Virus record (IMG/VR): IMGVR_UViG_2630968808_000007 | Span: 1 to 3,412 of that record | Direction: 5' to 3' (one strand) | Length of the DNA: 3,412 nt | DNA from: a virus | Lineage: Duplodnaviria; Heunggongvirae; Uroviricota; Caudoviricetes | Shown: positions 1,883 to 3,412 of the stretch, piece by piece | Layout of the letters: every line of letters starts with the position of its first letter | Numbering within the stretch: the stretch's first letter is position 1 | Made by a program: the position numbers and the translations under genes | Notes under the pieces: model-generated | What the model was told of the DNA's origin: nothing | The model's input: only the letters and a program-made list of their open reading frames with translations | Database searches by the model: none

Positions 1883-2443
1883 ATGCTTATTGGTTATGTG
1901 AGAGTGTCAACAAATGACCAGAACACCGCATTACAGAGAAATGCGCTCGATAGCGCAGGATGTGAACTGATTTTTGAAGATAAGATAAGCGGAAAGACCT
2001 CGGAGAGGCCGGGGCTCAAAAAGGTACTCCGTATCTTGTCGGAGGGAGACACGCTGGTGGTCTGGAAACTCGATCGGCTCGGTAGAAGCATGCGGCATCT
2101 TGTCGTTCTGGTGGAGGAGCTGCGAGAGCGGGGCATTAATTTTCGCAGCCTGACCGACAGCATAGACACGTCTACGCCGATGGGCCGATTCTTCTTTCAT
2201 GTTATGGGGGCTTTGGCAGAAATGGAAAGAGAGCTCATTGTTGAACGCACCCGGGCGGGTTTAGCAGCTGCGCGAGCAAAAGGGCGGATCGGCGGTCGCA
2301 GGCCCAAATTAACGGATGAGCAATGGGCGCAGGCAGGGAGATTGATCTCAGCAGGGGAATCTCGCCAGCGTGTGGCAATAATTTACGACGTAGGGGTTTC
2401 AACACTCTACCGAAAATTTCCGGTAGGTAGTGGTAAGACATAA
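1883..2443 (+). CDS. Site-specific DNA invertase, small serine recombinase of the Gin/Cin/Pin/Hin family
   Basis: ATG at 1883 preceded by GGGGA (1871-1875). The N-terminus MLIGYVRVSTNDQNT carries the catalytic Ser, and VVWKLDRLGRS, GINFRSLTDSIDTS, MGRFFFHVMGALAEMERELIVERT and the C-terminal HTH (VAIIYDVGVSTLYRKF) are nearly identical to recalled Gin/Pin sequences. The ORF-track start at 1847 is a GTG and is unlikely. Stop TAA at 2441-2443. The exact family member cannot be assigned from memory. Confidence 0.95.
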   Translation: MLIGYVRVSTNDQNTALQRNALDSAGCELIFEDKISGKTSERPGLKKVLRILSEGDTLVVWKLDRLGRSMRHLVVLVEELRERGINFRSLTDSIDTSTPMGRFFFHVMGALAEMERELIVERTRAGLAAARAKGRIGGRRPKLTDEQWAQAGRLISAGESRQRVAIIYDVGVSTLYRKFPVGSGKT

Positions 2444-2444
2444 T

Positions 2445-2479
2445 GCAGGCCGCCAGTGAATATTGAAGCTGGCAGCCTG
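2445..2479. terminator. Candidate bidirectional intrinsic terminator between convergent invertase and DinI-like genes
   Basis: GC-rich hairpin: arm 2446-2456 (CAGGCCGCCAG) pairs with 2469-2479 (CTGGCAGCCTG), 10 of 11 bp, with a 12-nt loop. It sits in the 43-bp gap between the two stop codons. There is a short T run after it on the + strand and a moderately U-rich stretch after it on the - strand. Confidence 0.4.
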
Positions 2480-2486
2480 AACCATT

Positions 2487-2753
2487 TTACAGCCCAGCTT
2501 GGCGAACCGTCGGGAATTCAGACACCAGCCACATATCGGCCTCTTCAAACATTTCCTCCAGCATTCGATTCAACTTTTCCCGATCGCTTTTGCTGGCATC
2601 ACTATTCAAGCCGTTCGCCTGCATCGGCTTTACCTTCACTTCGGCATCAGGAAAAATCTTGTGCACCCGCTTTGTTAGCTCAGCTAGGATGATCTCTCCG
2701 GCCCCCTGGAGCCCCTCAACATTTCGCTTGTCATAAACCAGTTCAACAAACAT
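2487..2753 (-). CDS. DinI-family protein (SOS-inducible RecA modulator homolog), 88 aa
   Basis: ATG at 2753-2751 with an AGAGGA Shine-Dalgarno 5-6 nt upstream. The translation MFVELVYDK...ELTKRVHKIFPD...MLEEMFEEADMWLVSE aligns with recalled E. coli DinI (MRIEVTIAK...ELSRRIQYAFPD...ILQETWESADDWFVSE). The ORF-track extension to 3104 would run through the promoter and LexA box and is rejected. A LexA box lies in the promoter. Confidence 0.85.
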   Translation of the reverse strand: MFVELVYDKRNVEGLQGAGEIILAELTKRVHKIFPDAEVKVKPMQANGLNSDASKSDREKLNRMLEEMFEEADMWLVSEFPTVRQAGL

Positions 2754-2776
2754 ACCGATCCTCTTAAAAGTGAAAA

Positions 2777-2804
2777 TTGCCTGTGCTTGATCTGTTTTTA
2801 TAAA
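2777..2804 (+). promoter_or_regulatory. Candidate sigma70 promoter for the rightward two-gene operon
   Basis: TTGCCT (2777-2782), a 16-nt spacer, and TATAAA (2799-2804). The LexA box begins 8 bp downstream, where it would block initiation. The assignment is weaker than for the leftward promoter and alternative -10 registers exist. Confidence 0.35.
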
Positions 2805-2831
2805 AATACAACTGTATATGTATACAGTCAA
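2803..2831 (-). promoter_or_regulatory. Candidate sigma70 promoter of the DinI-like gene, with the LexA box in its spacer
   Basis: On the minus strand: -35 TTGACT (plus 2831-2826), a 17-nt spacer, and -10 TATTTT (plus 2808-2803). The LexA box at 2812-2827 fills the spacer and overlaps the -35. Confidence 0.5.
2812..2827. promoter_or_regulatory. LexA operator (SOS box)
   Basis: CTGTATATGTATACAG is a perfect CTGT-N8-ACAG palindrome with an AT-rich centre, matching the consensus TACTGTATATATATACAGTA. It lies in the 99-bp divergent intergenic region between the DinI-like gene and the 2853 operon. Confidence 0.85.
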
Positions 2832-2852
2832 TGAGCGAGTGAGGGTGCGTTT

Positions 2853-3092
2853 ATGCCTCGTCAACCGGATATTCGTGCTGCTTTTATTGCGGCCATACAG
2901 CAAAACCCGAAGGGCTATCTCTGTCTGCATACAGACAAGTTCATCGCTGAACTGCAGGAGAGGCACTGGCATTTCAGCCAGGCGGATGCAAATACATGGA
3001 TCGAGCGATACCAGCCGGACTTCGCCGATAAGACGACAAACGGCAGCGAGAACCGGTACTGGATCCTGCGTAACATGGGGAGGGTTTTCTAA
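2853..3092 (+). CDS. Hypothetical 79-aa protein, first gene of a LexA-controlled operon; function unknown
   Basis: ATG at 2853 with a GAGGG Shine-Dalgarno at 2841-2845 (7-nt spacing). Its stop TAA (3090-3092) overlaps the next gene's ATG (TAATG), indicating translational coupling. I recognise no family; the protein is Trp/His-rich and non-hydrophobic. Confidence 0.6.
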   Translation: MPRQPDIRAAFIAAIQQNPKGYLCLHTDKFIAELQERHWHFSQADANTWIERYQPDFADKTTNGSENRYWILRNMGRVF

Positions 3093-3412
3093 TGGGATTT
3101 CCATCGCCAGCCATGGATTACCAGGAGCAGCGCATGACGATAGATGTTATCTGCGGTGTAGACAACAACTGCCGGGTTATTGAAACTTCATGCGGCTGGG
3201 CCGTTATTAACGTCAGTCTGAAGCCAGAAAGAGGGGATACGTTGCTGGTTAGCATGGATGGGAGAAACCAGTTTGTGAAGCTACTGGGTCAGGCACTGAT
3301 AACGGAAGAGGGTGAGGCGATCGAAGGAGAAGCCTTGAATGATGTTACGGTGCACGGCGTTCTTACACATACGCTTAACCAAGTTAAAGACGATAAATCG
3401 CCTGTAATGTAG
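3092..3412 (+). CDS. UmuD'-like protein (LexA/UmuD S24-peptidase C-domain homolog lacking the N-terminal arm; HumD-like), 106 aa
   Basis: ATG at 3092 with GGAGG at 3079-3083 (8-nt spacing). The N-terminus M-GFPSPAMDYQEQR matches UmuD residues directly after the Cys24-Gly25 cleavage site (GFPSPAADYVEQR, recalled). Further similarity: GDTLLV vs GDLLIV, DGRNQFVKLL vs DGEFTVKKLQ, VTVHGVLTHTL vs LDVFGVVIHVV. The stop TAG falls at 3410-3412, the window end. Confidence 0.75.
   Translation: MGFPSPAMDYQEQRMTIDVICGVDNNCRVIETSCGWAVINVSLKPERGDTLLVSMDGRNQFVKLLGQALITEEGEAIEGEALNDVTVHGVLTHTLNQVKDDKSPVM

What the first reader, a model, noticed from the sequence alone, without database searches (positions are those of the whole stretch)
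2487..3412. DinI-like gene and UmuD' mimic operon sharing one LexA operator: a compact phage-borne SOS modulation cassette
Directly seen: a DinI-family gene (-) and a two-gene operon ending in a UmuD'-like gene (+) diverge from a 99-bp region holding a single perfect LexA box, which overlaps the inferred promoters in both directions. Established: DinI modulates RecA filaments and inhibits UmuD cleavage, and UmuD' is the activated Pol V subunit. Inference: on SOS induction the element would co-express a RecA co-protease modulator and a cleavage-independent UmuD' analogue, letting it tune host mutagenesis or RecA* activity, and perhaps its own induction, independently of host UmuD processing. 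The location next to a tail-fibre inversion switch suggests a phage or phage-plasmid accessory region. I am not aware of this exact pairing being characterised as a unit.
Basis: partly seen in the sequence, partly recalled or inferred. Interest (0 to 1): 0.7.

Follow-up and report, generated by a model that had tools for sequence, protein, structure and literature searches.

The report
SOS-controlled DinI and short HumD prophage cassette
This is an accessory cassette at the end of an E. coli prophage: one LexA (DNA-damage) operator sits between a DinI-type RecA modulator gene and a two-gene operon for a small winged-helix protein and a shortened, non-catalytic UmuD'/HumD-like protein. The layout is already annotated in other phages, but this short HumD type and its partner have never been studied.

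Summary
dinI lies at 2487-2753 (-). The intergenic region is 99 bp and holds one LexA box (core 2812-2827; 17/20 to consensus; 0/200 shuffles match). A translationally coupled operon follows: ORF79 at 2853-3092 and ORF106 at 3092-3412.

- The DinI assignment is solid (Pfam 82 bits).
- It is nevertheless a distinct short subfamily. The Ser60 loop is deleted, the Lys97 position is not conserved, and it fails the Pfam S24 and NCBIfam HumD/UmuD cut-offs.

Across 46 species-representative loci the conserved unit is LexA box + ORF79 + short HumD. The box is present in 39/46 loci, and dinI is an optional neighbour in 6/46.

The claim that the pairing is uncharacterised as a unit does not hold at annotation level:
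- phiKO2 is annotated dinI <- lexA site -> umuD-like.
- HK140, mEp390 and Flotzy carry this cassette.
- P1 has lxr <- LexA -> humD.

The most likely function is an SOS-induced moron that modulates RecA* and supplies a cleavage-independent UmuD' surrogate. This is inferred, not shown. Overall it is an uncharacterised variant of a known kind, of moderate interest.

The parts
2445..2485 (.). G+C-rich hairpin between the convergent stop codons of the invertase gene (2443) and dinI (2487). It is a probable bidirectional terminator and lies just outside the mobile cassette.
   Evidence: The minus-strand RNA folds at -23.1 kcal/mol (z -4.1, 0/200 shuffles as good) and the plus strand at -19.5 (z -4.4). 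The consensus terminator scan found nothing because there is no clear U-tract. Homology to lambdoid-phage copies of the cassette starts at about 2482-2486.
2487..2753 (-). dinI-family gene, 88 aa. It is a predicted RecA-filament-binding modulator with an acidic C-terminal helix (…LEEMFEEAD…).
   Evidence: Pfam DinI PF06183 scores 3.4e-23, 82.2 bits against a cut-off of 24.2. PHROG 189 'RecA filament binding protein DinI' scores 7.6e-22. The NCBIfam chromosomal DinI equivalog gives only 42.9 bits against 111, so this is a phage paralogue. dN/dS is 0.05-0.08 against five relatives. It is annotated DinI in NZ_CP040269, Flotzy, mEp390 and HK140.
2803..2831 (-). Predicted dinI promoter: -35 TTGACT (2831-2826), 17-nt spacer, -10 TATTTT (2808-2803).
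   Evidence: It is the only sigma-70-like site found by the scan in 2400-3412. Both hexamers are invariant in 10 dinI-containing loci. The TTGACT is absent from loci that lack dinI.
2787..2815 (+). Predicted promoter of the ORF79-ORF106 operon: -35 TTGATC (2787-2792), 17-nt spacer, -10 AACTGT (2810-2815; TACTGT in relatives).
   Evidence: CTTGATCT is invariant in 10 loci. It recurs 19-20 nt upstream of the LexA core in Erwinia, Pantoea, Cronobacter and Klebsiella phage loci. The assignment is inferred from conservation and geometry; the simple scan missed it because the -10 is weak.
2810..2829 (.). LexA operator (SOS box) AACTGTATATGTATACAGTC, core 2812-2827, shared by both divergent promoters.
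   Evidence: It matches the consensus at 17/20, with 0/200 shuffles matching. It is the only exact CTGT-N8-ACAG in the window. The box is conserved at 29-41 nt upstream of ORF79 homologues in 9/10 phage loci and at 31-41 nt in 39/46 genome loci. The equivalent sites are annotated as LexA binding sites in phiKO2 and P1.
2853..3092 (+). ORF79, a 79-aa stand-alone winged-helix protein of unknown function (PHROG 3893). It is the promoter-proximal gene of the operon; its RBS GAGGG lies at 2841-2845.
3092..3412 (+). ORF106, a 106-aa short HumD/UmuD'-like protein ('mini-HumD'). It has a non-catalytic S24-type beta fold, starts at the equivalent of UmuD Gly25, and is translationally coupled to ORF79 (TAATG at 3090-3094).

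Best explanation
The region is a LexA-controlled accessory ('moron') cassette at the right end of a lambdoid/Mu-tailed prophage integrated at ssrA.

In an undamaged lysogen, host LexA would bind the single operator at 2810-2829. That would shut both divergent promoters, because the box covers the -10/+1 of the ORF79 promoter and the -35/spacer of the dinI promoter.

After DNA damage, RecA*-driven LexA cleavage would de-repress both transcripts.
- The DinI-family protein would bind RecA filaments and damp or retune RecA* co-protease activity. For E. coli DinI this acts preferentially on UmuD cleavage.
- The coupled ORF79/ORF106 operon would deliver a small winged-helix protein and a dimeric, pre-'cleaved', non-catalytic UmuD'-like subunit.
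- That subunit can act without RecA-mediated processing and lacks UmuD's N-terminal 24 residues, which I recall from the literature carry the Lon/ClpXP degrons. It most probably works by engaging host UmuC and/or the RecA filament, as P1 HumD does.

The net effect would be phage-side tuning of SOS mutagenesis and RecA* activity while the prophage is being induced.

Shown here: the identity and fold of the proteins, the operator, the promoter geometry, conservation, purifying selection and modular mobility.

Inferred: LexA binding, RecA and UmuC interactions, the role of ORF79, and the physiological outcome.
For: Gene identities and folds:
- DinI: Pfam 82 bits.

Operator:
- 17/20 to consensus with 0/200 shuffles matching.
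- Position conserved in 39/46 genome loci and 9/10 phage loci.
- Both promoters conserved around it.

Known precedents with the same logic:
- phiKO2 dinI <- lexA -> umuD-like.
- HK140, with the same dinI and ORF79 but a full-length 129-aa HumD.

Evidence for function and mobility:
- All three genes are under strong purifying selection, dN/dS 0.03-0.21.
- The pair decays together in degraded prophages.
- The cassette sits in the classical moron position, between tail fibre and int/att or at the prophage end, in unrelated phage types.
- The prophage's own repressor is a CI type with an intact S24 domain, so the cassette is not needed as an induction trigger.
Against: No experiment on this subfamily exists in the literature I could search.

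- ORF106 lacks about 23 residues of UmuD'/HumD, including the whole Ser60 loop. It scores far below the HumD and UmuD family cut-offs, so it may have lost or changed UmuC binding.
- Its constant partner ORF79 is absent from the characterised P1, N15 and phiKO2 systems and remains unexplained.
- dinI is missing from 40 of 46 loci, so a necessary DinI/HumD functional partnership is not supported.
- In this lineage the plus-strand -10 is weakened (A instead of T at 2810).
- I could not check whether every host that carries the pair also has umuC.
Confidence: 0.55

Rival explanations
1. The short HumD is an inhibitor or decoy rather than an activator. It has lost the Ser60 loop but keeps the N-terminal arm and the dimer strand. 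It could therefore titrate UmuC, heterodimerise with UmuD/UmuD', or occupy the RecA* groove. Together with DinI it would then act as an anti-SOS, anti-mutagenic or anti-cleavage brake that, for example, delays CI cleavage and lysis.
For: - ORF106 keeps the fold and the invariant GFPSPAxDYxE arm but has deleted 11-12 residues at the active-site loop and about 5-6 more near the Lys97 strand.
- It scores far below the functional-family cut-offs.
- In this sublineage it is linked to DinI, an established RecA co-protease inhibitor. Prophage DinI-like genes are discussed as SOS-mitigating in PMC10575684.
Against: - The characterised relative, P1 HumD, is annotated as complementing UmuD'.
- HK140 carries a full-length HumD in the same slot behind the same ORF79, which suggests functional equivalence of the two types.
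- There is no direct evidence for inhibition.
Confidence: 0.2
2. ORF79 is a LexA-controlled antirepressor, like Gifsy GfoA/GftA, 186 Tum or N15 AntC. It would plug prophage induction into SOS, with the DinI and HumD-like genes as passengers, as in the Gifsy dinI-antirepressor-irsA operon.
For: ORF79 is a small protein that is promoter-proximal behind a LexA box and lies next to a dinI homologue. That association is documented for Gifsy prophages and for Tum, which is an antirepressor-DinI fusion, in Lemire et al. 2011 (PMC3121763).
Against: - tblastn of ORF79 against 50,697 phage records, with a limit of E 0.01, gave no hit in any organism named Salmonella and none in 186 or N15.
- The host prophage repressor is a CI type with an HTH and an intact Peptidase_S24 domain (GDSM…K), so it is RecA-cleavable. 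Flotzy has the same type.
- ORF79 is almost always translationally coupled to a HumD-type gene.
- ORF79 copies at 96-99% identity sit in phages of different architecture: HK97-like siphoviruses and this contractile-tailed prophage.
- Here dinI is divergent from ORF79, not co-transcribed with it.
Confidence: 0.08
3. ORF79 (winged helix) and ORF106 (S24-like dimerisation domain) together form a two-piece, non-cleavable LexA/UmuDAb-like DNA-binding regulator. It would be made only after SOS induction and would then re-repress SOS-box or phage promoters.
For: - The domain order mirrors LexA: a winged-helix DNA-binding domain followed by an S24 domain.
- ORF106 starts exactly at the residue that follows the UmuD cleavage site.
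- The stop and start codons overlap, which implies roughly equimolar synthesis.
- The C-terminal tail of ORF79 is conserved but modelled with low confidence, as expected of an interaction motif.
Against: - hhalign of the ORF79 family against the LexA DNA-binding domain encoded in the same prophage shows no similarity (probability 0.2). There is also no Pfam LexA_DNA_bind hit.
- An exhaustive HMMER search found no genuine ORF79-S24 fusion. The few long hits are frameshift read-throughs.
- By my count from the sequence, ORF79 is nearly neutral in charge, and its putative recognition helix is not basic.
- P1, N15 and phiKO2 HumD work without ORF79.
- Alleles of the two genes are shuffled by recombination: L019 has ORF79 at 92% identity but HumD at 54%, and L018 has a full-length HumD.
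Confidence: 0.07

Closest known systems
Klebsiella phage phiKO2 genes 22/23 (DinI homologue <- LexA site -> UmuD-like)
   Same: Divergent dinI and umuD'-type genes flank one annotated LexA binding site with overlapping -10 elements, located after the tail genes.
   Different: phiKO2 has a full-length 127-aa HumD directly behind the operator and no ORF79. It is a linear plasmid prophage. Its DinI is shorter (80 aa).
Coliphages HK140, mEp390, Flotzy and Eeyore (HK97-like/lambdoid) DinI / hypothetical / UmuD-like cassette
   Same: It is the same three-gene cassette. Nucleotide identity is 79-93%. Protein identity is 81-99% for ORF79 and 74-95% for ORF106 in mEp390, Flotzy and Eeyore. The LexA box lies at the same 41-nt distance. 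The genes are annotated DinI, hypothetical protein and UmuD-like protein.
   Different: In those phages the cassette lies between the tail fibre and attP/int of siphoviruses. Here it follows a tail-fibre invertase at the end of a contractile-tailed prophage at ssrA. HK140 has a full-length HumD instead of the short form. HK225 has lost the HumD gene.
Phage P1 lxr <- LexA -> humD, and N15 gp26
   Same: P1 HumD is a phage-borne UmuD'-sized protein that starts MGFPSPA, has no cognate umuC and lies behind a LexA box shared with a divergent gene. N15 gp26 also has a box 32 nt upstream. P1 HumD is reported to complement UmuD' (annotation; McLenigan et al. 1999, cited, not read).
   Different: HumD is 129 aa and retains the segment homologous to the Ser60 loop. 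ORF106 is 28% identical to it and 23 aa shorter. The divergent partner in P1 is Lxr (189 aa, no Pfam hit), not DinI. P1 has no ORF79.
Gifsy-1/2/3 dinI-antirepressor-irsA operon and 186 Tum
   Same: In both, a prophage dinI homologue and a small protein sit under one LexA box outside the immunity region (PMC3121763).
   Different: There the genes are co-directional and the small protein is a proven antirepressor of a non-cleavable repressor. Here the small protein is coupled to a HumD-like gene, the repressor is cleavable, and no sequence similarity was found.
Plasmid impCAB-type operons (DinI-like ImpC + UmuD-like ImpA + UmuC-like ImpB)
   Same: A mobile element pairs a DinI-family gene with a UmuD-family gene under SOS control. 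This rests on my own knowledge; Lodwick et al. 1990 is listed as ref 46.
   Different: The imp operon carries its own polymerase (ImpB) and a cleavable full-length UmuD homologue. The cassette here has neither.

Membership tests
DinI family (Pfam PF06183) | Match to the family profile above the curated threshold | tested here: met
   The score is 82.2 bits against a gathering score of 24.2, covering profile positions 2-63 of 63. PHROG 189 scores 7.6e-22.
DinI family (Pfam PF06183) | Orthology to chromosomal E. coli DinI (NCBIfam equivalog NF007893) | tested here: not met
   The score is 42.9 bits against a cut-off of 111. This is a phage paralogue of the MsgA-like type, as mEp390 and HK140 annotate it.
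DinI family (Pfam PF06183) | Binding to RecA filaments and inhibition of UmuD cleavage | not testable with these tools
   Only the acidic C-terminal helix motif (LEEMFEEAD) is visible in the sequence.
UmuD'/HumD mutagenesis proteins | LexA/UmuD-type (S24) beta fold | tested here: met
UmuD'/HumD mutagenesis proteins | Score above curated family thresholds (NCBIfam HumD NF051876, UmuD NF007621, Pfam Peptidase_S24) | tested here: not met
   HumD scores 33.3 bits against 120 and UmuD 22.7 against 110, and both match the N-terminal ~55 residues only. There is no Pfam S24 hit even at E 10. Family members carry no precomputed Pfam domain.
UmuD'/HumD mutagenesis proteins | N-terminus at the UmuD Cys24/Gly25 cleavage site with the GFPSPAxDYxE arm | tested here: met
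   The protein starts M-GFPSPAMDYQEQR. G2, F3, P4, S5, P6, A7, D9 and E12 are invariant across UmuD, HumD and the short family.
UmuD'/HumD mutagenesis proteins | Ser60/Lys97 catalytic dyad of S24 peptidases | tested here: not met
   The 11-12-residue loop carrying Ser60 is deleted in the whole subfamily. The Lys97-equivalent column varies (K/T/R/F). This feature is not required for a pre-cleaved UmuD' analogue.
UmuD'/HumD mutagenesis proteins | Dimerisation, binding to UmuC and RecA*, and complementation of umuD' | not testable with these tools
   This needs genetics or biochemistry.
LexA-regulated (SOS-box) promoters | CTGT-N8-ACAG palindrome close to consensus and overlapping the promoter | tested here: met
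   The box matches the consensus at 17/20, with 0/200 shuffles matching. It overlaps both predicted promoters. It is conserved in 39/46 genome loci and 9/10 phage loci.
LexA-regulated (SOS-box) promoters | LexA binding and damage-inducible transcription | not testable with these tools
   No expression or binding data for this cassette were found in the searched literature.
LexA-controlled prophage antirepressors (GfoA/GftA, Tum, AntC) | Cognate repressor is non-cleavable and there is sequence similarity to known antirepressors | tested here: not met
   The host prophage repressor has an HTH plus Peptidase_S24 (68 bits) with GDSM…K. ORF79 gave no tblastn hit in any organism named Salmonella, nor in 186 or N15. 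It falls in PHROG 3893, function unknown.
Winged-helix DNA-binding proteins (for ORF79) | H1-b1-H2-H3-b2-b3 topology | tested here: met
Winged-helix DNA-binding proteins (for ORF79) | Sequence-specific DNA binding | not testable with these tools
   There is no profile hit to any DNA-binding family and no similarity to the LexA DNA-binding domain.

The most novel reading that the evidence does not exclude
The obligate, translationally coupled pair ORF79 (winged helix) and short HumD (non-catalytic S24 domain that starts at the cleavage-site glycine) may not be a Pol V accessory at all. It could be a new SOS-induced two-protein device. One possibility is a non-cleavable, LexA-like split regulator. 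Another is a RecA*-filament- or CI/LexA-C-terminal-domain-binding module that feeds back on the SOS response or gates prophage induction in many Klebsiella, Enterobacter and E. coli prophages. It could work together with the LexA-DNA-binding-domain-only protein encoded in the same prophage.
Probability: 0.12. Interest if true: 0.7.

Novelty: new variant of a known kind. Interest (0 to 1): 0.35.

Why it matters
Phage- and plasmid-borne SOS modulators influence how fast bacteria mutate and when prophages fire under DNA-damaging antibiotics.

The short-HumD/ORF79 pair is widespread in prophages of clinically important Enterobacterales. It comprises 1575 and 974 protein clusters at 90% identity, many from Klebsiella pneumoniae and the Enterobacter cloacae complex. 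It is under strong purifying selection, and it has never been tested.

If it does supply a RecA-cleavage-independent UmuD' surrogate, or instead blocks Pol V, lysogeny would change stress-induced mutagenesis and possibly resistance evolution. Prophage DinI-like genes have already been statistically linked to later quinolone-resistance mutations (PMC10575684).

The cassette also offers a compact natural example of one LexA operator gating two divergent promoters.

As a discovery, however, the DinI/UmuD'-like/LexA-box layout itself is not new.

Tried and rejected
1. Antirepressor hypothesis for ORF79. It was prompted by the Gifsy and Tum precedents. I rejected it as the main explanation for four reasons. 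The prophage CI is cleavable. ORF79 has no similarity to known antirepressors. ORF79 is coupled to HumD. The Flotzy CI is of the same cleavable type; that comparison was not decisive for immunity.
2. 'Split LexA' idea. hhalign against a LexA DNA-binding domain was negative. The exhaustive HMMER search found no true fusion, and the long hits P0299, P0416, P0393 and P0363 are frameshift read-throughs.
3. Defence-system membership. PADLOC gave no meaningful hit.
4. Structured RNA in 2400-3412. Rfam gave only a sub-threshold chance hit, 18.7 bits against 60.
5. Structural relatives of ORF79. Among viral proteins only its own homologue, HK225 gp28, was found. The PDB profile search found nothing. 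The afdb50 library was not available.
6. Co-evolution of ORF79 and HumD. The identity correlation of r = 0.67 is what linkage alone would give, and there are clear recombinants, so the test was uninformative.
7. Literature. McLenigan 1999 (PMC94175) and Casjens 2004 (PMC355964) are not held. The Klebsiella LexA-site table did not list the cassette.
8. The first search for related loci attempt with the divergent alignment A2 failed for lack of a conserved stretch. The run with A4 worked.
Full report
**What is in the window.** The 3412-bp window reads as the right end of a prophage. In order it carries:
- a tail-fibre C-terminus with a collar domain (7-450, +);
- a tail-fibre assembly gene (450-1043, +);
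- the inverted alternative pair on the minus strand (1015-1455 and 1458-1883);
- a serine DNA invertase (1883-2443, +);
- the region of the finding.

The region 2440-3412 is 99.9% identical to E. coli strain 1500 (NZ_CP040269), differing at one base. There it lies at the end of a prophage with lambdoid early genes, an HK97-type head and a contractile Mu-like tail. One hypothetical gene separates it from ssrA. The invertible segment is bounded by 26-nt inverted repeats.

**Observation check.**
- dinI occupies 2487-2753 on the minus strand and encodes 88 aa. Pfam DinI scores 82.2 bits against 24.2. The longer 205-aa ORF in the mechanical list is an upstream extension of it.
- The intergenic region is 2754-2852, 99 bp.
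- It holds CTGTATATGTATACAG at 2812-2827. The 20-mer 2810-2829 matches the LexA consensus at 17/20, and none of 200 shuffles of the window produced such a match.
- ORF79 runs 2853-3092 and ORF106 runs 3092-3412. The ORF106 ATG overlaps the ORF79 TAA by one base (TAATG), the usual sign of translational coupling.

The minus-strand promoter is TTGACT (2831-2826), 17 nt, TATTTT (2808-2803). On the plus strand, the conserved TTGATC (2787-2792) is followed after 17 nt by AACTGT (2810-2815).

In an alignment of ten dinI-containing loci four blocks are invariant or nearly so: CTTGATCT, AAATAC, the box, and AGTCAAT. The TTGACT element is absent from loci that lack dinI.

**The proteins.**

*DinI.* It is a clear family member but not the chromosomal orthologue. 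The NCBIfam equivalog scores 42.9 bits against 111.

*ORF106.*
- It belongs to PHROG 3469, 'UmuD-like' (5e-47).
- It is 28% identical to P1 HumD over its full length (E 9e-11).
- A profile of the family hits UmuD (8gmt_B) at E 6e-7 across residues 25-138, with a 12-residue gap exactly at the Ser60 loop.
- In the multiple alignment the short family starts at the residue that follows UmuD's Cys24/Gly25 cleavage site (the cleavage site, Ser60 and Lys97 are established knowledge of UmuD). It keeps the GFPSPAxDYxE arm invariant, lacks the SGDSMIDGGIS segment and about five or six residues near the Lys97 strand, and does not conserve the Lys97 position.
- It fails the NCBIfam HumD threshold (33 against 120) and the UmuD threshold (23 against 110), and has no Pfam Peptidase_S24 hit.

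ORF106 is thus a UmuD'-like protein of a distinct, shortened and necessarily non-catalytic subfamily. I call it mini-HumD.

*ORF79.*
- It has no Pfam or NCBIfam match and falls in PHROG 3893, of unknown function.
- Its model (pLDDT 84.7) has the winged-helix topology H-b-H-H-b-b.

**Distribution and what is conserved.**
- The ORF79 family has 974 clusters at 90% identity, and the mini-HumD family has 1575. Named members are Enterobacterales: Enterobacter, Klebsiella, Escherichia, Leclercia, Cronobacter, Raoultella and others.
- An exhaustive HMMER scan of 1.84 billion representatives found only 171 ORF79 relatives. All are stand-alone proteins of about 79 aa, apart from a few frameshift read-throughs into the HumD frame.
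- In the phage collection, ORF79 occurs in 47 records and mini-HumD in 57. The pair typically lies between the tail-fibre genes and int/att.

Counts for the 46 species-representative genome loci:

| Feature | Loci (of 46) |
|---|---|
| LexA-type box 31-41 nt upstream of ORF79 | 39 |
| Intact mini-HumD (104-108 aa) directly after ORF79 | 32, plus 1 cut by a contig end |
| Full-length HumD (123-129 aa) in the same slot | 2 |
| Frameshifted or truncated HumD remnant | 4 |
| No HumD-like gene detected downstream | 7 |
| Divergent dinI neighbour | 6 |

The six dinI-containing loci form one Enterobacter/E. coli sublineage, always with the box 41 nt upstream. The conserved unit is therefore LexA box + ORF79 + mini-HumD, and dinI is an optional neighbour that shares the operator.

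All three genes are under strong purifying selection, with dN/dS 0.03-0.21.

In complete E. coli genomes the cassette is rare: 38 of 5426 genomes, always chromosomal.

**Comparison with what is known.** The layout is not new.
- phiKO2 is annotated with gene 22 (DinI homologue, minus strand), a 'lexA binding site' with overlapping -10 elements, and gene 23 (UmuD-like, plus strand).
- P1 is annotated with a 'LexA binding site in the regulatory region of lxr and humD', and HumD is noted as functionally complementing UmuD'. The primary paper, McLenigan et al. 1999, is cited but is not held.
- N15 gp26 has the same box 32 nt upstream.
- HK140, mEp390, Flotzy and Eeyore carry this very cassette and annotate it DinI / hypothetical / UmuD-like.
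- Linkage of prophage dinI homologues with small LexA-controlled genes is documented for the Gifsy prophages and 186 Tum (PMC3121763).

What is not characterised anywhere I could search is the mini-HumD subfamily and its constant winged-helix partner.

**Mechanism.** The best-supported reading is an SOS-gated moron.
- LexA would hold both promoters off in the lysogen, and DNA damage would release both.
- The DinI paralogue would bind RecA filaments and retune RecA* co-protease activity. This is inferred from the established role of E. coli DinI (cited).
- Mini-HumD would be made already 'processed'. It also lacks UmuD's N-terminal 24 residues, where, from my recollection of the literature, the Lon and ClpXP degradation signals sit. 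It would engage host UmuC and/or RecA* as HumD does.

The invariance of the N-terminal arm in proteins that never need cleavage argues that this arm contacts a conserved host partner. That is an inference.

The rivals are ranked as follows:
1. Mini-HumD is a decoy or inhibitor. This is plausible given its deletions and its resemblance to CI and LexA C-terminal domains.
2. ORF79 is an antirepressor. This is weakened by the cleavable CI of this prophage (HTH plus S24 with GDSM…K), the lack of similarity to known antirepressors, and the obligate coupling to HumD.
3. ORF79 and mini-HumD form a split LexA-like regulator. This has no sequence support, no genuine fusions, and recombinant allele combinations exist.

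None of these can be settled without experiments.

**Verdict.**
It over-assigns ORF106 to UmuD'/HumD proper, overlooks that dinI is optional, and misses that the architecture is already annotated in phiKO2, P1 and several lambdoid coliphages.
- It is a new, uncharacterised variant (short non-catalytic HumD plus winged-helix partner) of a known kind of phage SOS accessory module.
- Interest is moderate to low for the pairing itself. It is somewhat higher for the unexplained ORF79/mini-HumD pair, given its abundance in clinically relevant Enterobacterales.

Noticed in passing
L015 16059-16379 (same prophage, E. coli strain 1500; outside the window): The prophage's early-right operon, between a DNA adenine methyltransferase and RusA, encodes a 106-aa protein. 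It has a LexA DNA-binding domain (Pfam LexA_DNA_bind 2.8e-19, residues 1-65) followed by about 40 residues with no Pfam match, and no S24 cleavage domain. Such a non-cleavable LexA mimic could in principle occupy SOS boxes, including the cassette's operator, after host LexA is destroyed.
   Followed up: partly
window ~1802-1827; partner just upstream of window base 1 (L003 11973-11998 / 13874-13899): 26-nt imperfect inverted repeats (92% complementary) of the cix/gix type bound the 1.9-kb invertible tail-fibre segment. The left site lies just outside the window.
   Followed up: partly
window 2810: This lineage, together with strain 1500, has A where nine related dinI-containing loci have T. 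The position is the first base of the predicted -10 (TACTGT -> AACTGT) and the flank of the LexA box. The change may weaken the ORF79 promoter. A single -10 SNP in the Gifsy-1 PdinI-gfoA promoter is known to silence that prophage.
   Followed up: partly
window 2445-2485: A strong hairpin (-23 kcal/mol, z -4.1) lies between the convergent invertase and dinI stop codons. It has no clear U-tract.
   Followed up: partly
L063 451-1697 (phage HK225): HK225 has a degenerate copy of the cassette. dinI and the operator are present, ORF79 is extended to 99 aa, and the HumD gene is lost. A DNA invertase gene follows immediately, so this is a second, independent juxtaposition of the cassette with an invertase.
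   Followed up: no
L009 1-2057 (Klebsiella phage ST15-VIM1phi2.1): Here the ORF79/mini-HumD pair lies directly downstream of, and overlaps, a retron-type reverse transcriptase gene. There is no LexA box upstream.
   Followed up: no
L017, L046, L055 (genome contigs): Cassettes 51-97% identical at the ORF79 protein level sit on contigs of MAGs labelled Geobacteraceae, Bacillota and Candidatus Saccharibacteria. These are almost certainly mis-binned enterobacterial prophage contigs.
   Followed up: no
P0014, P0123, P0125, P0126; Erwinia phages L010 and L013: Several databases name ORF79 homologues 'DNA polymerase V'. The name appears to have been propagated from the neighbouring UmuD-like gene. 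ORF79 has no similarity to UmuC or UmuD.
   Followed up: partly
P0314 (967 aa), P0371 (1101 aa): Two very long database 'proteins' match a fragment of ORF79 eleven times in tandem. They look like assembly or translation artefacts of a repeated fragment.
   Followed up: no
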